Virus record (IMG/VR): IMGVR_UViG_3300015177_000008
Coordinates: 47,519 to 111,518 of that record
Source: a virus
Lineage: Duplodnaviria; Heunggongvirae; Uroviricota; Caudoviricetes
Length of the DNA stretch: 64,000 bases
Strand: one strand, 5' to 3'
The position numbers and the translations under genes were made by a program. The notes under the pieces were generated by a model that did not search any database, was not told where the DNA came from, and saw only the letters and a program-made list of their open reading frames with translations. Shown in pieces: positions 1 through 50,052 of the stretch (the stretch's first letter is position 1; each line of letters starts with the position of its first letter).

Positions 1-1537
1 CAGGTTTAAACGTCAGTTCAGTTTTGATCTGATCTTTCATTCCCGTGATTGGCTGTCCCTCGGCGTCTCGCAGAGACAGAACCAGCGGCTTTTGCGCACT
101 CCCGTTAGCAAGCATTTGGATACGGCTCTGGCCATCAAGCGTTAACGTAGTACGATCGGCGCTCATACCTGCTCCGGTAATGACCACCGCAGTCTGCACA
201 CGTTTCGAGGCATTGCCTTTGTTATCGTATGCAACCGCAGAGATCGCGTAATAATTGTCTTTGCCTGCACGATAAGCCGGGAGCGTTACTTGCCACTGGT
301 TACCCTGACCGGTAATTTTACCGCCTGCGGCCAGCAAAGACGGTGCTTCCCATTGCACATTTTTCAGGCCGTGAGTTGCTTTGCTGACCACGAGGCCAAG
401 AGACACCGTCTGCCCGCCCTTACCTTCAATACGGTCTGGCAAGGCAATACGGATCACCTCAGCTTTGCGATACTCAAGAACTATATTGTTATTACGTTCA
501 ACCAGATCATATCGGCTGCCTGCCAGTACCCGACGCTCGCGAATGCTGTCTGTATCGAGTTGTTTCTCCAGAGGCTCGCCAATCCGGTAGTTAACTTCCA
601 GGCCAAAGCGAGTGTCATTCTGACCGCTCTTGCCCTGTTTGTGCTCTGCACTCAGTGTCAGAAGAGGCACTGGCGTGTAATTCACTTCAGCGGTAATCGC
701 ATGTGGATCTTTCTGGCGTTTATCTTTACCAAACAGCCCAACTTCATCGCCATAATACTGTTCATACATCAGGCTTGCGCCAAGCTGCGGCCAGGCAGGT
801 AAATAACCCTCAGCACGAATATCCCAGCCATTCGCCGGGCGTTCCTGATAATCCTCAACATCCGGTGATTTTTTCCAGCCAGAAGCCCGGATATAACCAT
901 TGGCGCTCAGCTTAAGATAATCACGCCAGTATTCCGTACCAATACCAATGCGGGTATGACTACGAGATAAATCATGGTCAATAAAGGTATTCACCCCCGC
1001 CATCCAGTCATTACCTGAAAAATGACGCCAGCCAAAACCAATATTTGACTGAGTGCGATCGTCAGTGCGATGTATTGCCCCCTGAGTGAACAGCATATTT
1101 GTCGGCGTGTCATATATCGGATAAAGCATTTCCAGCGAAGAATCCTTCAGCGAGAAATCTTTATCGGCATTCAGTTTGACGCGCGCGGTGCCATATTTCC
1201 CGAGCCACTCCTGGATTTCCTGGGTGGCCTTAGCCGTAGCCATTCCGGTAACAAAGTTGCGAGTCGTATCGCTATCCGGCTGACTGCTTAAAAATTTACC
1301 GGCATTCGCGGCAACCGACGCGATATTTTTTTCTGTATTATTGTCAGTAGCAACCGCAGTATTTTCCGTACTTAGACGTGGCAAAGCCGCATTATGCGCT
1401 TGAGCTGTCATTGACGGTGTAAAAGTGACAGCTAATGGGAAAAGAACCTGAACAGAGATGTTTGCCCATGCCACACATCTAGCCAAGGCGGAATAGCGGA
1501 AACGTTGTTGTTTATAGGTTTTATTTAAACGTAACAT
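1..1537 (-). CDS. Intimin/invasin-family inverse autotransporter, N-terminal part; gene runs off the window start (partial)
   Basis: Minus-strand ORF from ATG at 1537 open to position 1 (not in track because no stop in window). Translation MLRLNKTYKQQRF... contains intimin/invasin beta-barrel-type motifs (YGTARVKLNADKDF, GIGTEYWRDYLKLSANGYIRASGW, GSRYDLVERNNNIVLEYRK). Confidence 0.7.
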   Translation of the reverse strand, partial: MLRLNKTYKQQRFRYSALARCVAWANISVQVLFPLAVTFTPSMTAQAHNAALPRLSTENTAVATDNNTEKNIASVAANAGKFLSSQPDSDTTRNFVTGMATAKATQEIQEWLGKYGTARVKLNADKDFSLKDSSLEMLYPIYDTPTNMLFTQGAIHRTDDRTQSNIGFGWRHFSGNDWMAGVNTFIDHDLSRSHTRIGIGTEYWRDYLKLSANGYIRASGWKKSPDVEDYQERPANGWDIRAEGYLPAWPQLGASLMYEQYYGDEVGLFGKDKRQKDPHAITAEVNYTPVPLLTLSAEHKQGKSGQNDTRFGLEVNYRIGEPLEKQLDTDSIRERRVLAGSRYDLVERNNNIVLEYRKAEVIRIALPDRIEGKGGQTVSLGLVVSKATHGLKNVQWEAPSLLAAGGKITGQGNQWQVTLPAYRAGKDNYYAISAVAYDNKGNASKRVQTAVVITGAGMSADRTTLTLDGQSRIQMLANGSAQKPLVLSLRDAEGQPITGMKDQIKTELTFKP

Positions 1538-2078
1538 TGACATAATTTCTTAATGAACGAGTTAACGAACATTTGCAACTGCGAGTAAAAGCATTTGCTT
1601 CCAGAAATATTTAGATTGGAGTGTCTATGCCCCCAACAGGGCCGCGAATGCTATCACAAACGAAAAAGTGCAACAACACATGAATTAACTGAGATTTAAT
1701 GATTGTTAGGCATCTATAACCAAAATGTTGCAACAACTTAAAATCAATGTTACTTGATAATGTATCCCAAATAACAGGAGGAGCTATTTCAGTACATGAG
1801 AGGATGATTATTCTAACAACATGGGAAGTAAAACATTTTTATTATTACATGATCCATAAATTAGAAATAAATGACCTAAGTCGTGAATAAAGCCTTTTAA
1901 GAAATAAAGTCAGCTCTATATCCAAAAAATAACTTTGAGATAATGAACACTATATCACATACCACATCAATTAATAACAACCTTCTACTTATATAACTTA
2001 GAAGTTGGTAGTTATTTATATAAATGCATTATAGTTTGCAAGTGTTTTTAAATGTTCATTTAACGATACTCATGATTT

Positions 2079-2567
2079 CTAATCAAAATTATTCAGTGCT
2101 TTTTTATTTATCATCTCGAACATTTTTAGTTCATCGTCAGATAATCCCTCCCAAACTTTCTTCATGATTATATTTTGCACACGTATCATTCTTTGTATAA
2201 ATAAAACTCCATCTGATGTTAAACATAAATTTTTACCTCGGCGATCGAGTTCATTATCAACACGTTTGATAAGGTTTTGCTTTTCTAAGATATCTGTAAT
2301 TCGCGTTATATTTGTTTTAGAAACCTGCAACAGGTTACTAATTTCAGATGGGGATAAACAATGACCATCAGTAAAATATAATAATGATAATGCCATAAAC
2401 ATGGTATTGTTTATTTTATGCTTCTCTAGCGCATCTGATATGACGTCCTGCATTTTATTGCTAATCCGGATACATAATTGCATTAGCAAATGCTCCTGAA
2501 CAGGATAATCTGTCTCTTTATTTTTTTGATAATCAAGTATTTTTTCTAGAAAAAGCACGTTTTTCAT
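2079..2567 (-). CDS. MarR-family transcriptional regulator
   Basis: 162 aa ORF with ATG at 2567; winged-helix MarR-like pattern (SPSEISNLLQVSKTNITRITDILEKQNLIKR...DRRGK); AT-rich gene flanked by AT-rich intergenic DNA. Confidence 0.55.
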   Translation of the reverse strand: MKNVLFLEKILDYQKNKETDYPVQEHLLMQLCIRISNKMQDVISDALEKHKINNTMFMALSLLYFTDGHCLSPSEISNLLQVSKTNITRITDILEKQNLIKRVDNELDRRGKNLCLTSDGVLFIQRMIRVQNIIMKKVWEGLSDDELKMFEMINKKALNNFD

Positions 2568-2741
2568 TGTTGTATCCGGTATTGAATAATCATCTCATAA
2601 AAACCATGTAGCCTGTGTGTGATATCTATGTCCCAATGAAACTGGTAAAATAAAGTATAGCAGTTCAAGATTCCTTGCGCCACCTGAATTTTCTACAGAT
2701 AATGCAAAACACATAGCAGTAAAACCTTTCGTTTATAAATT

Positions 2742-3041
2742 TTATTTTTTCCTATAAACATATAGTTCTCCATGCGCTTTCTTTCTGTCTCGGTGTATTC
2801 CCATTTCTTTTTCTATTCGTATCGTAGCTTTACGTAACTCTTTTGATGTGCTAACATCTTTGGCTGCAATGTTTTTTGGCACCGCCTGCTTCATGCAGCG
2901 GCGTATTTGTTCTCTAACATATATTCGTTGGTCTACCTGTCCTTCCTGTCGATAATCCATCAGTACTTCCTGCCAGCGAACAGCAGCCCTGCGCCATAGT
3001 CCTCTTTGCTCAAGATCTTCGGCCTTCTTGTCTCTAACCAT
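2742..3041 (-). CDS. PerC-like small transcriptional activator (putative)
   Basis: ATG at 3041 preceded by GGAGG; 99 aa basic protein with GLWRRAAVRW motif reminiscent of the PerC family. Track ORF 2742..3056 begins at an upstream TTG. Confidence 0.4.
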   Translation of the reverse strand: MVRDKKAEDLEQRGLWRRAAVRWQEVLMDYRQEGQVDQRIYVREQIRRCMKQAVPKNIAAKDVSTSKELRKATIRIEKEMGIHRDRKKAHGELYVYRKK

Positions 3042-3418
3042 TTCCCCTCCAAACAAACGTATGCTACAGATTAACTACCTAAAAATTGAGTTTAACACTA
3101 ACTCATGTAATTAATACTAATGCAAGAAAATATTCACTAATATTTTTATCTTTTAGTTATAAACTAAATTTACATGTGGCTGTTTTGCAAAATGTAGACT
3201 TCCTATATTTTTTATGAAATGATTAGGAAAATAAATTTATTTTATAGCCTTAACACTATGGTCAATACATTTCTTAACACCCAATGCCATCACGAATGAA
3301 CTAAGGAAAAGCGGAATGGCCTTTGACGTTAAAATGCTCTAACTGGAGGTTGTTCATGTGTTTTTCTCTTATCGTTTAGTTACTACATTCTTACACAAAC
3401 CAAGTAAGTGTTTACCTA

Positions 3419-5105
3419 TCATTTAACGCGTTTGAAAACGTATACGCTGACTGTGATCCCTGTGTCTTCAAACTCGTTGGTAAACGACTTCCCTCTGGCA
3501 TAAACGTAATTATCCATCGTCATCCAGTCCAGTATTGGCGCAGTGCCCGGCAATACTGCTACAAGACGCCCGCCGACTTTCAGATGCCCCAGCGCAGCCA
3601 GCGTGTGCTCTCTATGACGACCAAGCGAGTACGGCGGGTTCATAACGATTTTGTCGAACTGATAACCTGCGTTGTCCTCAGACCACTTTATGAAGTCGCA
3701 GCAAATCGTGTTCGTATACCCTTTTCCACGCAGGATATCAGCAAAGAGAGGTGCGATTTCTATGCAGGTAACATCTTCCAGATCGGCGTTAATATAGGCC
3801 AGAAGATCCCCACGTCCGGCTTGAGGCTCCAACAGCTTCTCACCAGGCTTCAATTCAGTGGCTCTTGCAACGTACTCAGCAATCAAGCGTGGGGTAGGGT
3901 AGAACTGGTGTGATTTTGTATCCGGTATTAAACCGGTAGCCACAATCGTATTTAGCGTATGGCCGATGTCATACGGGAACTGCCAGTGCTTTTTCTCCTG
4001 CACGCCGCCAATGAAGCTCAGTGTGCGCTCAAGCTCTTCCACCTGCGACTTCTGGAGAGCTGAATCAGAGAAGTACCATACTCCTTTGTCTTTGCTCAAT
4101 CGCCCGTCACGAAGCGCAGTGCGAACCGGGACGGAGATCGTCTTCTGGATTAGCCCGAACTGCTTTGGTGCCCGTGTTTTTTGGCGCTCTGCGGCATGGC
4201 GCGGGGATTGCTGCAGGCATACTGTAAGCCAGCACCTCATTCAACTTCCAGGCCACGTCAGGATGTATTTCAAAGTGAACGTTGCCGTTCTTGAACATCT
4301 TCACGCGCATCAGATTTCCATCGACGTTCATCCAGTCACCGGTCTGGCAGTCGTTTGCCCGATACGCAGCTGATAGCACCTCAGCAGTGCGGTTGATGGT
4401 AATAAATTCTTTGTGCGCGAAGAAATGAAGCAAAACACGCAGATCGTCGATATAGTCCTCTTTGCGATAGTTCACACTAACGCTGTCCCGCCAGAAATCA
4501 GAAATGCAGTCAGCGATTATCAGACGCTCGCTGAAACCGTTCGTCTTATTTGTCTTGTGCGCAGGACTCAGCGCCTTAAACAAGCCATACACGCGCTCGG
4601 AGAGATATTTGTGCCTGTCATTCAGCAAATTAAGCATCGTTGGTATGACCGTTTCTGCTTTGAACTCCGGTACACCAACGAACTCTTTAACCTTCATCTG
4701 ATAGCCGGTTCTGTCAGTTTTGATGACTTCCTGCTTGCCCTCGATAAATTGCTCACGCCACTCGTCGCGACGGGAAGCTGGCATGATCAGCAAAACGTTA
4801 GTCATATCCGTGACCTTCCTCCAGTACTCGGCCCAAATATTCTGTTTCACCCATTCCAGATCGACTTTATCCAACCAACCTCGATTTAAACGCGAGCGAT
4901 CTTCATCTGGTCGATGGTTTAGTCTCAGCAGGCGATTAATCATGTTGTGGCGTTCGTCGCCATAAACGAAGTCGTGTACCTGATACATGAAGTCGATCTC
5001 TTTCTCGCACTCGGCCACGATTTCGTGGATGACATTCATTTCCTGACGATAGTCGATAGCCGTGTTTGAGCTGGCATCGTCGATGATGGAAAGGGCTGTA
5101 TTCAT
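3419..5105 (-). pseudogene. SAM-dependent methyltransferase-like gene (NPPY motif, DUF4942-like), disrupted by a frameshift
   Basis: Two overlapping minus-strand ORFs in different frames (4107..5105 and 3419..4240). The downstream frame carries EPQAGRGDLL and IVMNPPYS motifs; the tail of the first and head of the second look like out-of-frame sequence. Confidence 0.5.
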
Positions 5106-5209
5106 AATTGCACCATTAAGAAAAGATTTGTTTAATAGTGCAATTATTTCAAAAAATGAAAAGGTACTAAATAGAAATTAACAGGCAATCCTTTAAATAA
5201 AGGTATTTG

Positions 5210-5824
5210 CTAATCATACTTTGAGGTATTTATAACCAGGATTTTGTTTGTATAAATCTTCTTAATATCCCATGTGACGTTACCGGAATACCATTGACCG
5301 TTATATACTTGGTTTCCAGTTGCACCGGTCATAGTTACATAGACAGGTCTGTCGTAATCGGTTCGTCTAAAGTTATAAACCCCAACCATAGCAGGCATTA
5401 CCGCACACGGATACCCCATATCTATTGTAAATTGAGGGTCAGAAATAGTGATAAGTTTCGCATCAAGGGGCATCATCTCACCGTGATACACCATTGCGCC
5501 TGCGCTGTTATACATGGCAATGCCATAGCCAGAATGTGGTAACACCATATCAGAAAAAGCATAAACTGTTATTGTTCCGGGGCTACCATTTACCTGATGC
5601 AATCTGAGAGCATTGTATCCGTTACTATGTTCATGAATAAACATCATGTTCGCCTTATTACTGCTTTTTATGAAGAAAAAGCATGATTTGTTTGATGGGA
5701 TTGATGTTTTAAAAACAGAACCTTTAGATGCAGACATTGTCCCTTTATTAATCAGATTTTGCGGAGTAAATTCAGGACTCATCCACAAACTTCCATCTGA
5801 TTGAGTAATTGACATCCCGAACAT
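5210..5824 (-). CDS. Hypothetical protein, AT-rich, Asn/Tyr/Gly-rich
   Basis: ATG at 5824 lies 2 nt after the stop of the upstream ORF; track ORF 5210..5881 starts at an upstream TTG. No recognisable motif. Confidence 0.4.
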   Translation of the reverse strand: MFGMSITQSDGSLWMSPEFTPQNLINKGTMSASKGSVFKTSIPSNKSCFFFIKSSNKANMMFIHEHSNGYNALRLHQVNGSPGTITVYAFSDMVLPHSGYGIAMYNSAGAMVYHGEMMPLDAKLITISDPQFTIDMGYPCAVMPAMVGVYNFRRTDYDRPVYVTMTGATGNQVYNGQWYSGNVTWDIKKIYTNKILVINTSKYD

Positions 5825-5826
5825 AA

Positions 5827-6108
5827 TTATCCCCAGTATGTGTATATGTAAGAACCAAGCCCCGTATATAAATTTGACCAACTAACCGTATTTCCATTAA
5901 TAGTAACATTTGGAACAGGTAAATTGATGTAGTTGTCGTTGTTAAGAGGCATTAATGACCACACGGCATGTAGTGATTTACCCGGTGGCGGATTAGAGTA
6001 CGTCTTAGAGCCTGATGATGCCGTAAACCGATCAAGAAAAAAAATAGGTGTAAGGAAGCCAGTAACGTTAATTCCTTTATTGTTGTAAATCCCTGTACCG
6101 TATGCCAT
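5827..6108 (-). CDS. Hypothetical protein, AT-rich, Asn/Gly/Thr-rich
   Basis: 93 aa ORF with ATG at 6108; directly followed by the 5210..5824 gene. Confidence 0.4.
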   Translation of the reverse strand: MAYGTGIYNNKGINVTGFLTPIFFLDRFTASSGSKTYSNPPPGKSLHAVWSLMPLNNDNYINLPVPNVTINGNTVSWSNLYTGLGSYIYTYWG

Positions 6109-15001: not shown

Positions 15002-16132
15002 TCACACCGCCACTGGAACCTTGATCCACGGTAGAGGGTCATAGCCAAGAATTAAAACCTCGTCCCATTTGAAATCATCCAACTCTGACCATTCATGAGG
15101 GAAAATAACGACCGGATCTGAATGCTCTGGAGCCTGTCGTTTCATTAGCTCACACACACCTTCCATGTGGTTGTTGTACAAATGCACGTCAAAGCCAAAA
15201 TGCACAAATGCACCGGCCATGTGACCCGTAATCTTCGCGAGAAAATGAGTGAGAATGCCATAGCCAGCAATATTGAATGGCATACCAACAAAAGTGTCTA
15301 CGCTACGCTGTACGAGGCAGGAGTTGAGGATGCGTTTGGGGATTCCAAGTTCATCCAGTTCAGCTTCAGTAACACTGCCGTCCATCTCCAGATCGTATAG
15401 CATCTTGGTGTAGATAGACTCGTAACCGAGGCGACTGTGTTGAAGACCAATGTCAGTTGCCATCGTTAAACGGGTTTCAAAATCCAGCTCACGACTCCAC
15501 AAAGAGAAGACAAAGTGGCAAGGTGGCAGTTTCATATCCTCAAGCTCGCCTACGTTCCATGCGTTAAGCATGATGCGACGATCGGTAGGGTTCGTGCGCA
15601 GTGTATCGACAATACGCTGTAGCTGATCGATTTCACGGGACAGCACTACGCGATCTTCACTGATACCCAGGTATCCCTCGACTTTGTACCCGCGTTCACG
15701 GAAAGTAGCGATCTTGCTCAGATATTCACTATGGCTCACGATGCGGGTATCTTCCCATCGACGCCACTGCTTACCGGAAACCGGCCCCAAATCGCCATTC
15801 TCATCGGCCCATGCATCCCAAATCTTAACGCCGTTATCCTTGAGAAATTGGATGTTGCCCGTGCCTTTCAGATACCACTCAAGTTCGACAAGCAGTGGCT
15901 TAAGATTTACCGCCTTTCCAGAAATAAGCGGCACAGTCCCACCAGTAAGCATGTAGTAAGAGGGAACGTAGCAGGTGCTTAAAGTACCAGTGCCTGTGCG
16001 ATCATCAGCCTGCACGCCGCTTTTAAGCACCGTCTCAATAACTTTTGCATACGATGCGTTTGTTACCTGACCGTTCGTATGCTCACGATTCAAAAGGAGT
16101 GACACAAAAACCTCACAAAGATAAGTAATCAC
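15002..16132 (-). CDS. thyA: Thymidylate synthase (with two insertions relative to ThyA as I recall it)
   Basis: DRTGTGT, WADENGDLGPV, RRIMLNAWNVGEL, LPPCH, PFNIAGYG motifs; true start uncertain because the annotated ATG lies inside a class-2 palindrome. Confidence 0.85.
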   Translation of the reverse strand: MITYLCEVFVSLLLNREHTNGQVTNASYAKVIETVLKSGVQADDRTGTGTLSTCYVPSYYMLTGGTVPLISGKAVNLKPLLVELEWYLKGTGNIQFLKDNGVKIWDAWADENGDLGPVSGKQWRRWEDTRIVSHSEYLSKIATFRERGYKVEGYLGISEDRVVLSREIDQLQRIVDTLRTNPTDRRIMLNAWNVGELEDMKLPPCHFVFSLWSRELDFETRLTMATDIGLQHSRLGYESIYTKMLYDLEMDGSVTEAELDELGIPKRILNSCLVQRSVDTFVGMPFNIAGYGILTHFLAKITGHMAGAFVHFGFDVHLYNNHMEGVCELMKRQAPEHSDPVVIFPHEWSELDDFKWDEVLILGYDPLPWIKVPVAV

Positions 16133-26496: not shown

Positions 26497-26605
26497 TCAT
26501 GTATGCTGTCAGCGGTAATTGATAGTCTGTCAGCGGTTCACCGTATGCTGCCAACTGTTTTTGGTATTCTGTCAGCGGCAAATCAAGTATGCTGTCAGCG
26601 GTTGA
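26497..26605. repeat. Iterons, upstream set (about 5 copies of TATGCTGTCAGCGGT and variants)
   Basis: Direct repeats tatgctgtcagcggt, gtctgtcagcggt, tattctgtcagcggc with irregular spacing. Confidence 0.7.
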
Positions 26606-37328: not shown

Positions 37329-37657
37329 TGATGCCCGCCAATTGGCGGGCATCTGTTCTCTGTAAAGGTGTCTGGCATCGTCTGGTTCGTTAACGTTTAC
37401 TAAACCAATGGTGACAAAAATTAGTTATCTTTGAAAAATAAAGGTTGCATGAAAAGAAGGGGTATGCGTTAATAGCATCGTTGGTTTGCAAGACAGACCT
37501 TATGTAAGCAGTTTTAGTAAAGCAGTCTCAGTTCAGTGTTATCTTCTGATTTCCCTTCTTCGTGAGTCTCCTCCTTAAGTGCCTAAGTAAGTCCCAATCT
37601 ATACAGATCAAATTCTCGCCGCACTATGTGGCTCACAAAATTAAGAAGGTAATATCT

Positions 37658-37873
37658 ATGTCTAATAAAATGACTGGTTTAGTAAAATGGTTTAACTCTG
37701 ATAAAGGCTTTGGCTTTATTTCTCCTGCTGATGGCAGTAAAGATGTTTTTGTACATTTTTCGGCAATTCAGAGTAATAATTTCCGCACTTTGGAAGAAGG
37801 CCAGCAGGTCGAATTCTCTATCGAGAATGGGGCTAAAGGCCCAGCAGCAGCAAATGTCGTTGCTCTAAGCTGA
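37658..37873 (+). CDS. Cold-shock protein, CspA family
   Basis: [38 protein letters not shown]... (RNP1/RNP2 motifs); long 5' leader of about 160 nt; track ORF starts upstream. Confidence 0.85.
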
Positions 37874-38151
37874 TTCAACGCTGATGATCCTCATTTCTAC
37901 AATAACGAAGACGGTGTAAGCCTGAGTGGATAGATTTGTAGGATTGTACAAGTTGAATAAATTAGCATGGTAAGGCCATGCTAATTAAATCGACACAACG
38001 GCCAGTTTATTCCATAAAAGTGAATTGCCCATTGTGGCGAAATGCGGGGTTGCCGCATGAATAGTCAAAGGCAGAAGCTAACTGCCGGCATGGCAAAACA
38101 AAGTGCGTAAGAGGAGTGACTTCCTCAACAAGCGCCATAATTCTTTATAAA

Positions 38152-49448: not shown

Positions 49449-49535
49449 TGGCGGAGAGTAATGGAATCGAACCATCATCGCTTGCGCAATGGGACGGTTT
49501 TCAAGACCGCTTGAGCACCATGCTCCCTACTCTCC
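49449..49535 (-). tRNA. tRNA-Ser (anticodon UGA), type II
   Basis: Manual fold: acceptor GGAGAGT/ACTCTCC, anticodon loop CTTGAAA, long variable arm, T-loop TTCGATT, discriminator G, encoded CCA. Confidence 0.7.
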
Positions 49536-49679
49536 GGCCGTTGTGGTGGCCGGTACTGAATCTCCGGCATACGGTGCAGCCAATTAGGACTACGGACGAT
49601 CACCGCTCGCGAAAGGGAAGATTTGCGGCCGCATTTCCCTAACATCCAAGAAAGCTATCGCATCAGTCTGCGAATCCAC

Positions 49680-49759
49680 CACAACGGTAAGATCACTACC
49701 TTTCGACCAGTCATTGTGCACATGAACGACGATTAACCGTAATGATCTTATCGTTGTGT
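49680..49759. repeat. Long hairpin B (16-bp stem, 1 mismatch)
   Basis: cacaacggtaagatca ... tgatcttatcgttgtg. Confidence 0.5.
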
Positions 49760-49809
49760 TGTGAAGCCAGATGCTTATCTTCTGGTTGCTTCAAAGAGCT
49801 GCACTTCCT

Positions 49810-49897
49810 CACAACGGTAAGAGCACTGGTCTGACTCTATCGATTTACGGGCTTGTGGGTCAGTATCGCCGATTCGCCCAATGCTCTTACCTGTTGT
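49810..49897. repeat. Long hairpin C (16-bp stem, 1-nt bulge), 2 nt after tRNA-Thr
   Basis: cacaacggtaagagca ... tgctcttacctgttgtg. Confidence 0.5.
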
Positions 49898-49899
49898 GT

Positions 49900-49975
49900 T
49901 GGTGCCGGTTAACGGGATCGAACCGCTGACATCCTGCTTACAAGGCAGGCGCTCTACCAACTGAGCTAAACCGGC
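49900..49975 (-). tRNA. tRNA-Thr (anticodon UGU)
   Basis: Manual fold: acceptor GCCGGTT/AACCGGC, D-arm GCTC..GAGC, anticodon stem CCTGC/GCAGG with loop CTTGTAA, T-loop TTCGATC, encoded CCA. Confidence 0.8.
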
Positions 49976-49977
49976 AT

Positions 49978-50052
49978 TGGCGATGGTGGGTGGATTCGAA
50001 CCACCGACCAGTTGGTTAACAGCCAACTGCTCTACCGCTGAGCTACACCATC
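49978..50052 (-). tRNA. tRNA-Asn (anticodon GUU)
   Basis: Manual fold: acceptor GATGGTG/CACCATC, anticodon stem GTTGG/CCAAC with loop CTGTTAA, T-arm GGTGG TTCGAAT CCACC, encoded CCA. Confidence 0.8.

What the first reader, a model, noticed from the sequence alone, without database searches (positions are those of the whole stretch)
1..3056. Virulence-island-like cargo: intimin/invasin-family gene with adjacent MarR-type and PerC-like regulators
An inverse-autotransporter adhesin gene sits next to two small regulators of families known to control invasin (RovA-type MarR) and intimin/LEE (PerC) expression. The genes are separated by long AT-rich regions typical of H-NS-silenced loci, and the block lies immediately next to the phage-type backbone.
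Basis: partly seen in the sequence, partly recalled or inferred. Interest (0 to 1): 0.55.

Follow-up and report, generated by a model that had tools for sequence, protein, structure and literature searches.

The report
Phage-plasmid adhesin module with two regulators
An E. coli plasmid that is also a phage (SSU5 type) carries, in a variable slot, a diverged copy of the FdeC surface adhesin preceded by two small regulator genes; the parts are all known kinds, but this combination and location have not been described.

Summary
On the minus strand, window 1-1537 is the first 512 codons of an inverse-autotransporter adhesin gene, 2079-2567 a MarR-family gene and 2742-3041 a PerC-family gene. They are separated by spacers of 27-34% G+C, and homology to SSU5-type phages starts at 3303.

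Two complete plasmids match at 99.9%. They show an intact 1414-aa adhesin on the same roughly 108-114 kb replicon, so neither refutation condition is met.

The interpretation needs correcting:
- The adhesin is an FdeC xenologue (80% identical and gapless over full length), not intimin or invasin.
- The MarR protein is not RovA/SlyA-type. It belongs to the PapX/SfaX/FocX/VatX "X" group (53% identity to SfaX), whose members sit beside adhesin or toxin genes.
- PerC/Pch proteins are known H-NS anti-silencers.

The 6.2-kb cargo replaces the ead/ea22 block of related phages. The three-gene order recurs in diverged alleles, but parts are lost in different lineages: perC is a pseudogene in two, marR is frameshifted in one, and the adhesin is replaced by an IS1 remnant in three.

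My best reading is a self-regulated, H-NS-silenced adhesion module that may also act on host genes. The regulation is inferred, not shown. Interest is modest.

The parts
1..1537 (-). The 5' 512 codons of an FdeC-type inverse-autotransporter adhesin gene: signal peptide, beta-barrel and first Ig-like domains. The gene continues about 2.7 kb beyond the left edge of the window.
   Evidence: The reading frame is open from the ATG at 1537 to position 2. The full 1414-aa homologue in L001 (9293-13537) matches IAT_beta at E 3.6e-109 plus Invasin_D3/Big_1 repeats. It is 80% identical and gapless to chromosomal FdeC of E. coli 042, and residues 595-1008 match PDB 4e9l at E 3.8e-198.
1538..2078 (-). AT-rich 541-bp region upstream of the adhesin gene (30.5% G+C). 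The proximal ~190 nt are conserved among mobile alleles. A weak candidate promoter, TTGTTG-N17-(TGa)TAGCAT, lies at 1676-1648.
   Evidence: Composition is. In the alignment of five mobile alleles, the proximal 190 nt are 78-91% identical in the four diverged alleles (98% in the near-identical L029), against 58-74% (98% in L029) for the distal part. Homology to the chromosomal fdeC locus is confined to roughly the last 35-60 nt before the ATG. The promoter is read from the sequence only; the consensus scan did not call it.
2079..2567 (-). MarR-family winged-helix regulator of the PapX/SfaX/FocX/VatX 'X' group, 162 aa.
   Evidence: Pfam MarR E 5e-11. It is 53% identical to SfaX/PapX over residues 7-162 and 50% identical to two further X-type proteins. 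The putative recognition-helix motif N-x-T-x-ITD-x-LEK (TNITRITD in six of the seven sequences) and the DRR wing motif are invariant or nearly so in alignment A1. dN/dS is 0.10-0.29.
2568..2741 (-). perC-marR spacer (33.9% G+C) with a conserved extended -10 element, TGCTATACT, at 2662-2654, about 87 nt upstream of the marR ATG.
   Evidence: The element is identical in five alleles and differs at one base (TGCTACACT) in L011, while the surrounding sequence diverges. Coordinates were checked. PapX, FocX and SfaX are reported to have their own proximal promoters (PMC6246914).
2742..3041 (-). PerC/Pch-family small regulator gene, 99 aa. The mechanical ORF from an upstream TTG reaches 3056.
   Evidence: Pfam PF06069 scores 53.9 bits against a cut-off of 22.6. 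GGAGGGG lies 3 nt before the ATG at 3041. The nearest relatives outside the module are 52% identical PerC genes on IncHI1B and IncK2/Z plasmids and on P1-like phage phi456. dN/dS against L016 is 0.45, based on few sites.
3042..3302 (-). AT-rich (27.2% G+C) region upstream of perC, forming the right end of the 6.2-kb cargo.
   Evidence: Homology to phage Cyrano resumes at L001 15303, which is window 3303.
3303..3357 (-). Start of the backbone: a remnant (18 codons, ATG at 3357, ending at a TAG at 3303-3301) of the Ead/Ea22-like gene in which the cargo junction lies.
   Evidence: Phage matches begin at 3303 and fall under the 'Ead-Ea22 protein' gene of Cyrano. Longer remnants of the same gene survive in L002 (66 aa) and L010 (118 aa).

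Best explanation
This is a three-gene accessory adhesion module, in the order perC-like, papX/sfaX-like marR, fdeC-like adhesin, all read in one direction. It sits in a variable slot of an SSU5-type E. coli phage-plasmid.

The adhesin is an FdeC-type inverse autotransporter. An N-terminal beta-barrel in the outer membrane exports a rod of Ig-like domains that mediates attachment.

I infer the following regulation. The AT-rich DNA around the two regulator genes and upstream of the adhesin is silenced by H-NS. The PerC/Pch-type protein, which in EHEC displaces H-NS at LEE1, and/or the X-type MarR protein, which in the case of VatX raises expression of its neighbouring autotransporter gene, relieve that silencing. 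The X-type MarR may additionally repress the host's flhDC, as PapX and FocX do, so that adhesion and motility are expressed reciprocally.

Shown here: gene identities, module boundaries, location on the phage-plasmid, conservation of the gene order, and purifying selection on marR.

Inferred: H-NS silencing, the targets of both regulators, and adhesin function.
For: -
- Location: the cargo is L001 9095-15302, equal to window -2905 to 3302. It replaces the 4.7-kb ead/ea22/eaa block of phage Cyrano, and its left end cuts a HumD-like gene.
- Same replicon: the block lies on the complete circular plasmid NZ_CP117002.1 and on the linear, unlocalized plasmid record NZ_JBTZOT010000003.1, both 99.9% identical.
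- The order perC-marR-adhesin recurs in diverged alleles. It is intact in the IMG/VR contig L029, which has a 1211-aa adhesin. perC remnants are present in L002 and L010.
- marR is under purifying selection (dN/dS 0.10-0.29). Its own conserved extended -10 element is present in five of six alleles, with a one-base variant in the sixth.
- The regulators and spacers are 27-34% G+C.
- Homology with the chromosomal fdeC locus ends about 35-60 nt upstream of the ATG. This adhesin therefore has a different upstream region that travels with it.
- Literature: PapX and FocX repress flhD (PMC6246914). VatX raises Vat about 3-fold and may compete with H-NS (PMC6956023). Pch is an H-NS anti-silencer (PMC4764244). 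Chromosomal fdeC is regulated by H-NS and temperature (Easton 2014, cited in PMC6714894).
Against: - No expression or binding data exist for this module.
- The adhesin has persisted with perC dead. L002 and L010 share stop codons at the same W and Q codons, and perC is absent from L011. PerC is therefore not essential to keep the adhesin.
- perC and marR stay intact in L016-L018, where the adhesin has been replaced by a decayed IS1. The regulators may have targets elsewhere.
- VatX, at 44% identity to PapX, did not affect motility (PMC6246914). At 53% identity, repression of flhDC cannot be assumed.
- PapX K54 aligns with N in this protein, with a K one position later. This is my reading, and the importance of that residue is recalled from memory rather than checked.
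- The consensus promoter scan found fewer sites than in shuffled sequence.
Confidence: 0.55

Rival explanations
1. The two regulators work mainly in trans on host genes, and the adhesin is only a neighbour. Candidate targets are flhDC and other X genes for the MarR protein, and LEE1/ler or other H-NS-silenced islands for PerC. On this view the phage-plasmid reprogrammes host lifestyle through the regulators.
For: - perC and marR remain intact (91% and 97.5% identical) in three SSU5-type plasmids in which the adhesin was removed next to an IS1 remnant.
- A second X-type MarR plus PerC pair sits beside unrelated surface-modification genes, with Pfam families Polysacc_deac_1, glycosyltransferase, DUF535 and PagP.
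- PapX, FocX, Pch and PerC all have documented trans targets (PMC6246914, PMC4764244, PMC5293775, PMC7369912).
Against: - In two lineages perC, and in one also marR, decayed while the adhesin stayed intact.
- Whether the host strains carry LEE could not be checked.
- perC dN/dS is 0.45, so constraint is weak.
- The L016-type arrangement could simply be a recent IS1 deletion that has not yet been purged.
Confidence: 0.25
2. The module is hitch-hiking DNA in decay. It was picked up once by illegitimate recombination into a dispensable phage region and is being lost piecemeal, with no selected role for the phage-plasmid or the host.
For: - It is rare. The regulator pair is found at above 99% identity in 2 of 5426 complete E. 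coli genomes, and only 2 SSU5-type records among 72,556 plasmids carry the adhesin.
- Each of the three genes is inactivated or deleted in some lineage.
- Neighbouring backbone genes are also damaged: the DUF4942 methylase gene is frameshifted and the HumD-like gene truncated.
- The right junction differs between lineages.
Against: - The 4.2-kb adhesin frame stays open in alleles that differ by 16-28% in protein sequence.
- marR dN/dS is 0.10-0.29.
- All three genes are intact in at least two sublineages with different passenger lengths, isolated from human stool in Mali and human blood in Thailand, plus an IMG/VR contig.
Confidence: 0.15
3. One reading: a RovA/SlyA-type MarR and PerC control an intimin/invasin-type adhesin, as in Yersinia (RovA-inv) and EPEC (PerC-LEE).
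For: - The broad logic is shared: a MarR-family or PerC-family protein counteracting H-NS at an adhesin gene (PMC4764244; SlyA is mentioned in PMC6246914).
- All three belong to the named superfamilies.
Against: - The SlyA model scores 32.6 bits against a cut-off of 120. The closest relatives are PapX/SfaX, not RovA/SlyA.
- The adhesin fails the intimin and Inv models and is an FdeC homologue.
- There is no LEE, tir or ler in the block.
Confidence: 0.05

Closest known systems
FdeC (EaeH), the chromosomal inverse-autotransporter adhesin of E. coli
   Same: Same length class (1414 vs 1417 aa). It is 80% identical with no gaps over 1412 residues, and has the same beta-barrel plus Ig-like repeat architecture. 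Residues 595-1008 match the solved structure 4e9l at E 3.8e-198.
   Different: It lies on a phage-plasmid, not at the chromosomal fdeC locus. At about 80% nucleotide identity it is far beyond usual allelic variation. The upstream region is unrelated beyond roughly 35-60 nt. It has two dedicated regulator genes, which the chromosomal locus in strain 042 lacks. PGAP does not name it FdeC.
PapX / FocX / SfaX / VatX 'X' regulators (MarR-like proteins encoded at adhesin or autotransporter-toxin loci of extraintestinal E. coli)
   Same: 53% identity to SfaX/PapX over nearly the full length. The putative recognition-helix motif (TNITRITD-x-LEK in six of seven aligned sequences) and the DRR wing motif are conserved. 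It is encoded next to an adhesin gene and has its own conserved promoter-like element, as reported for papX, focX and sfaX (PMC6246914, PMC6956023).
   Different: It lies upstream of the adhesin rather than at the 3' end of an operon. Its partner is an inverse autotransporter rather than chaperone-usher fimbriae or a SPATE. It is paired with a PerC gene and is plasmid/phage-borne. Its function is untested.
PerC (EPEC EAF plasmid) and Pch (EHEC prophages)
   Same: Pfam PerC membership. It is a small protein encoded on a mobile element and embedded in AT-rich DNA. The family acts by relieving H-NS silencing (PMC4764244).
   Different: The closest relatives found are only 52% identical; EPEC PerC and EHEC Pch were not compared directly. 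The adjacent DNA-binding partner is a MarR protein, not the AraC-type PerA-like protein seen beside the 52%-identical relatives. No LEE is in the block, and the target is unknown.
SSU5 / pHCM2-type phage-plasmids (Escherichia phages Cyrano and CMS-2020a, Salmonella phage SSU5)
   Same: From 3303 onward the window is 97-98% identical to Cyrano and CMS-2020a and 78% to SSU5. PLSDB types the near-identical plasmid as rep_cluster_488, non-mobilizable, about 108 kb.
   Different: The slot between the DUF4942 methylase gene and the HumD-like gene holds the adhesin module instead of the ead/ea22/eaa-type genes.

Membership tests
Inverse autotransporters (type Ve secretion; intimin/invasin superfamily) | N-terminal IAT beta-barrel domain followed by a C-terminal passenger of Ig-like (Big_1/Invasin_D3) repeats | tested here: met
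   PF11924 E 3.6e-109 at residues 76-350. There are 8 Invasin_D3 and 4 Big_1 stretches. The barrels of invasin and intimin (4e1t, 4e1s) match at E 1.5e-83 and 1.6e-72.
FdeC/EaeH | Full-length colinearity and high identity with characterised FdeC | tested here: met
   80% identity over 1412 of 1414 residues with no gaps to FdeC of strain 042. Residues 595-1008 match 4e9l at E 3.8e-198. Caveat: PGAP names it only 'inverse autotransporter beta domain-containing protein'.
FdeC/EaeH | Conserved chromosomal locus of fdeC | tested here: not met
   It is located on a phage-plasmid. Homology to the chromosomal locus ends about 35 nt upstream of the ATG and at the stop codon.
FdeC/EaeH | Surface display and adhesion (collagen or epithelial cells) | not testable with these tools
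   This needs expression and binding assays.
Intimin | Match to the intimin equivalog model (Tir-binding C-terminal lectin-like domain, LEE context) | tested here: not met
   NF033627 scores 392 bits against a cut-off of 1400, and only residues 47-479 align. No LEE genes are nearby.
Invasin (Yersinia Inv type) | Match to the Inv equivalog model | tested here: not met
   NF040980 scores 308.6 bits against a cut-off of 710.
MarR family | Winged helix-turn-helix MarR domain | tested here: met
   PF01047 scores 42.7 bits (cut-off 24.6) and PF12802 scores 38.1 bits (cut-off 27).
SlyA/RovA subgroup of MarR | Match to the SlyA equivalog model, with SlyA/RovA as closest relatives | tested here: not met
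   NF002926 scores 32.6 bits against a cut-off of 120. Every homologue that carries a specific name is called SfaX or PapX.
PapX/SfaX/FocX/VatX 'X' regulators | Closest sequence relatives are X proteins, with conserved putative recognition helix and wing | tested here: met
   53% identity and 177 bits to SfaX/PapX. VatX is accepted in the group at 44% (PMC6246914). The N-x-T-x-ITD-x-LEK and DRR motifs are invariant in A1.
PapX/SfaX/FocX/VatX 'X' regulators | Encoded within or beside an adhesin or autotransporter locus | tested here: met
   It is adjacent to the FdeC-like gene in six independent loci. However, it lies upstream rather than 3'-terminal as in pap and sfa.
PapX/SfaX/FocX/VatX 'X' regulators | Represses flhDC and motility, or activates the neighbouring gene | not testable with these tools
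   This needs motility assays, EMSA or reporter assays.
PerC/Pch family | Match to Pfam PF06069 above the gathering score | tested here: met
   53.9 bits against 22.6, covering profile positions 1-81 of 90.
PerC/Pch family | Activates LEE1/ler by relieving H-NS silencing | not testable with these tools
   No LEE is present in the window, and the host chromosome was not examined.
SSU5-type phage-plasmids | Backbone synteny and identity with SSU5-like phages, on a plasmid replicon of about 100-110 kb | tested here: met
   97-98% identity over 90% of window 3300-28000 to CMS-2020a and Cyrano, and 78% to SSU5. The near-identical plasmid is a circular 108,353-bp record typed rep_cluster_488.

The most novel reading that the evidence does not exclude
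The X-type MarR gene and the PerC-type gene form a portable two-protein anti-silencing cassette. A site-specific winged-helix protein would be paired with a small H-NS-displacing protein, analogous to the AraC-type PerA with PerC.

Such a cassette would move between mobile elements and be coupled to different surface-structure cargo. Here the cargo is an FdeC-type adhesin. Elsewhere it is a deacetylase / glycosyltransferase / DUF535 / PagP cluster resembling shf-capU-virK (my reading of the Pfam families). It would also act on host flhDC or LEE, letting a phage-plasmid switch its host between motile and adherent states.

Evidence not excluding this reading:
- The pair recurs in two unrelated contexts.
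- It stays intact after loss of the adhesin.
- PerC relatives sit next to a DNA-binding regulator gene in every context examined.
Probability: 0.15. Interest if true: 0.6.

Novelty: new variant of a known kind. Interest (0 to 1): 0.35.

Why it matters
Phage-plasmids are mostly discussed as carriers of resistance genes. This one shows that an SSU5-type element, and separately a P1-type element in E. albertii, can carry a large adhesin, here with its own regulatory genes.

If the regulators work as their relatives do, acquiring the element could add an adhesin and also alter host motility or H-NS-silenced virulence genes. That would be lysogenic conversion by a plasmid-like prophage.

It also extends the PapX-type regulators from fimbrial and SPATE loci to an inverse autotransporter. 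The natural series of variants, in which each of the three genes is lost in turn, is useful for dissecting who regulates what. None of this overturns current understanding, and the module is rare.

Tried and rejected
- Source of the module. Two scans of GTDB species-representative genomes, one with the MarR protein and one with alignment A1, found no relative. No donor species could be named.
- PerC homologues. The word-indexed protein search returned only three near-identical proteins. tblastn on plasmids and phages was more useful.
- Second MarR+PerC locus. L020 has no match in PLSDB, so its replicon type and host remain unknown.
- Non-coding RNAs. Rfam found nothing in 1-6000 at E <= 0.1.
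- Promoters and terminators. The consensus scan was uninformative in this AT-rich DNA, with 3 sites against 9.6 expected. The promoter candidates I give come from cross-allele conservation only.
- Repeats. Repeat searches gave only short, imperfect palindromes, including an imperfect palindrome at 1966-2019. I do not claim an operator.
- PapX binding site. The paper defining it (PMC3247938) is not held, so I did not search for that site.
- Literature. No paper held both 'SSU5' and 'FdeC', or both 'phage-plasmid' and 'inverse autotransporter'.
- Rejected ideas. (1) That metG and apbC left of the adhesin are chromosomal cargo: they are backbone genes, also present in phage Cyrano. (2) That PerC belongs to the phage backbone: related phages lack it at this place.
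- Not attempted: structure prediction, which would add little to these sequence matches, and checking whether the host strains carry LEE, because the tools cannot filter by assembly.


Full report
**What is in the sequence**

Window 1-3302 carries three genes, all on the minus strand and read right to left.

- A PerC-family gene lies at 2742-3041 (99 aa). Its ATG at 3041 follows GGAGGGG.
- A MarR-family gene lies at 2079-2567 (162 aa).
- An open frame starts at the ATG at 1537 and runs for 512 codons off the left edge of the window.

Pfam confirms each family: PerC at 53.9 bits (cut-off 22.6), MarR at E 5e-11, and IAT_beta at E 3.6e-109 with eight Invasin_D3/Big_1 stretches for the full-length homologue.

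The spacers are 541, 174 and 261 bp long, with 30.5%, 33.9% and 27.2% G+C. marR itself is 30.7%. The adhesin part is 49.4% and the backbone 45.9%.

**Which replicon, and is the adhesin intact?**

The first 3400 bases match two public E. coli plasmids at 99.9%, with 2-3 differences.
- NZ_CP117002.1 is circular, 108,353 bp, from human stool in Mali.
- NZ_JBTZOT010000003.1 is 113,678 bp, from human blood in Bangkok.

In both, the adhesin gene is an intact 4245-bp ORF (1414 aa). PGAP annotates the trio as 'inverse autotransporter beta domain-containing protein | MarR family transcriptional regulator | PerC family transcriptional regulator'.

From 3303 onward the window is 97-98% identical to Escherichia phages CMS-2020a and Cyrano, and 78% identical to Salmonella phage SSU5. 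The replicon is therefore an SSU5-type phage-plasmid.

**Boundaries of the cargo**

I aligned the near-identical plasmid (L001; window position N equals L001 position N+12000) with phage Cyrano.
- Backbone homology stops at L001 9094 and resumes at 15303, which is window 3303.
- The cargo is therefore 6208 bp and holds only the three genes and their flanks.
- It replaces a 4.7-kb block of ead/ea22/eaa/eae-like genes in Cyrano.
- The right junction lies inside an Ead/Ea22-like gene, of which 18 codons remain (3357-3301).
- The left junction lies outside the window and truncates a HumD-like gene.
- metG and an apbC-like gene further left are backbone genes, not cargo, because Cyrano has them too.

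**The adhesin**

The full protein is 80% identical to chromosomal FdeC of E. coli 042, with no gap over 1412 residues. Residues 595-1008 match the solved structure 4e9l at E 3.8e-198. It fails the NCBIfam intimin, Inv and SinH models by wide margins. It is an FdeC xenologue, not an intimin or invasin.

Nucleotide homology to the chromosomal locus covers the coding region and only about 35-60 nt upstream. The mobile gene therefore has its own upstream region.

FdeC-like genes on plasmids are rare. There are 37 records in PLSDB, and several of those are mislabelled chromosomes or F' plasmids.
- Two are SSU5-type plasmids.
- One is a P1-like IncY plasmid of E. albertii, with a 1210-aa adhesin.
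- About 22 are IncFII plasmids of E. fergusonii and Salmonella, with a 1001-aa version next to the aerobactin genes.

**The MarR protein**

The best NCBIfam model is MprA (113 bits, below its cut-off of 157). SlyA scores only 32.6 bits against 120.

Every specifically named homologue in the large protein collection is SfaX or PapX. BLASTP gives 53% identity to SfaX/PapX over residues 7-162. The contexts of those relatives are the 3' ends of pap and sfa fimbrial operons.

The putative recognition-helix motif (TNITRITD-x-LEK in six of seven aligned sequences) and the DRR wing motif are conserved across the alignment.

This places the protein in the 'X' group.
- PapX and FocX repress flhD and motility (PMC6246914).
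- VatX, 44% identical to PapX, does not affect motility. It raises expression of the adjacent vat autotransporter gene about 3-fold, possibly by competing with H-NS (PMC6246914, PMC6956023).

The broader idea of a MarR protein beside an adhesin gene has a closer and better precedent in the X group.

**The PerC protein**

It is a clear Pfam member. Its nearest relatives outside this module are only 52% identical. They are PerC genes on IncHI1B and IncK2/Z plasmids and on P1-like phage phi456, each next to a divergent AraC-type gene and IS elements.

[quoted passage not shown] PchE also affects flagella and adhesins (PMC7369912).

**Is the trio a real unit?**

The same order recurs in diverged alleles.
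- L029 (IMG/VR contig, 108.6 kb): all three genes intact, with a 1211-aa adhesin.
- L002 (CP056250.1): the adhesin is 98.9% identical, but the regulator region is only 74.5% identical. marR is frameshifted and perC has four in-frame stops.
- L010 (E. coli B354, SSU5-type): marR is intact at 74% identity, perC has three stops, and the adhesin is present.
- L011 (a different plasmid type): IS remnant, marR, a 1414-aa adhesin, then a group II intron reverse transcriptase. There is no perC.
- L016-L018 (SSU5-type): perC (91%) and marR (97.5%) are intact, but the adhesin is replaced by a decayed IS1 copy beginning 22 bp after the marR stop.

L002 and L010 share stops at the same W and Q codons of perC, so that inactivation is old.

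dN/dS is 0.10-0.29 for marR and 0.45 for perC. The perC figure rests on about 15 substitutions.

The three-gene arrangement is therefore ancestral, and the marR-adhesin pair is its most persistent part. Neither regulator is strictly tied to the adhesin.

The contrast between a near-identical adhesin and diverged regulators in L002 also shows recombination within the module, with a breakpoint roughly 190 nt upstream of the adhesin ATG.

**Regulatory DNA**

An extended -10 element, TGCTATACT (2662-2654), lies about 87 nt upstream of the marR ATG. It is identical in five of the six alleles and differs at one base in the sixth, while the surrounding sequence diverges. This matches the report that papX, focX and sfaX have their own proximal promoters (PMC6246914).

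Upstream of the adhesin, the proximal 190 nt are 78-91% identical in the four diverged mobile alleles, against 58-74% for the distal part (the near-identical L029 is about 98% in both). This stretch contains a weak candidate promoter, TTGTTG-N17-(TGa)TAGCAT, at 1676-1648.

These are readings of the sequence, not mapped promoters. The consensus scan was uninformative. No Rfam family matches.

**How it most likely works**

Shown: an FdeC-type adhesin gene with its own upstream region and two co-oriented regulator genes, inserted as one block in a dispensable region of a phage-plasmid.

Inferred from the families:
1. The 27-34% G+C DNA is bound by H-NS. Chromosomal fdeC is known to be controlled by H-NS and temperature (Easton 2014, cited in PMC6714894).
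2. PerC and/or the X-type MarR protein relieve that silencing.
3. The MarR protein may also repress flhDC, so that adhesion and motility alternate.

I put about 0.55 on this package.

**A second context for the regulator pair**

A 50%-identical X-type MarR gene followed by a PerC gene sits beside genes with Pfam families Polysacc_deac_1, glycosyltransferase, DUF535 and PagP, in several draft assemblies. The gene set resembles shf-capU-virK, though that name is my reading of the families. It has no match in PLSDB.

PerC relatives also sit next to AraC-type regulator genes elsewhere. Together this hints that PerC proteins habitually travel with a site-specific DNA-binding partner. This is the most novel reading the data allow, but it rests on two contexts only.

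**Novelty and verdict**

All three genes are already annotated by family in RefSeq. Each belongs to a known kind, and adhesin loci with X-type regulators and PerC genes on mobile elements are both established.

What is new is the combination: an FdeC-type inverse autotransporter with an upstream X-type MarR gene and a PerC gene, sitting in an SSU5-type phage-plasmid. I found no paper linking these terms.

The module is rare. It occurs in 2 of 5426 complete E. coli genomes.

I rate it a new variant of a known kind, of modest interest (0.35). It is useful mainly as a natural test system for X-type and PerC-type regulators, and as an example of adhesin carriage by phage-plasmids.

Noticed in passing
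window 3419-5105 (minus strand), indel near 4182: The DUF4942/N6-methyltransferase gene of the backbone is split into two overlapping ORFs (3419-4240 and 4107-5105). The cause is one extra A in an A-run, compared with the intact 561-aa gene in L029, L002 and phage Cyrano. RefSeq marks it 'frameshifted' in NZ_JBTZOT010000003.1; PLSDB lists no gene there in NZ_CP117002.1. This could be a real inactivation or a shared homopolymer error.
   Followed up: yes
L001 8804-9115 / L027 4804-5094 (left of the window): The left cargo junction truncates a HumD-like (UmuD-type) gene. metG (methionyl-tRNA synthetase) and an apbC/Mrp-like ATPase gene next to it belong to the SSU5-type backbone, since they are also present in phage Cyrano. 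A full-length aminoacyl-tRNA synthetase on a phage-plasmid is notable in itself.
   Followed up: partly
L020-L024 (draft assemblies GCA_0097938xx-0097952xx and one ENA metagenome contig): A second X-type MarR (50% identical) plus PerC pair lies beside deacetylase, glycosyltransferase, DUF535 and PagP genes, downstream of wzi/wza. The order is reversed, with MarR before PerC. It has no match in PLSDB.
   Followed up: partly
L005, L006, L007 (IncHI1B and IncK2/Z plasmids, P1-like phage phi456): The 52%-identical PerC relatives are each paired with a divergently transcribed AraC-family gene (244 aa) and flanked by IS elements. The layout is reminiscent of perA-perC.
   Followed up: partly
L025 (E. 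albertii p2RM9976, IncY, P1-like) and L026 (E. fergusonii IncFII plasmids): Other mobile FdeC-like adhesins exist. A 1210-aa version sits on a P1-type phage-plasmid with the same upstream ~465 bp but no marR. A 1001-aa version sits next to the aerobactin (iuc) genes on conjugative plasmids of E. fergusonii and Salmonella.
   Followed up: partly
window 37480-37898 (+): Full-length match to the Rfam cspA thermoregulator (185.7 bits against a gathering score of 78). This implies a cold-shock-protein gene with its regulatory 5' UTR on the phage-plasmid.
   Followed up: no
window 49449-50052 (minus strand): Three tRNA genes are clustered on the backbone: Ser(tga), Thr(tgt) and Asn(gtt).
   Followed up: no
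window 26497-26602: A 42-nt tandem repeat of 2.5 copies at 70% match. It looks iteron-like and may be a replication or partition site.
   Followed up: no
L002 12758-13019 and L010 7571-7816: The perC pseudogenes in two diverged lineages share stop codons at the same W and Q codons. perC was therefore inactivated in their common ancestor, while marR and the adhesin were kept.
   Followed up: yes
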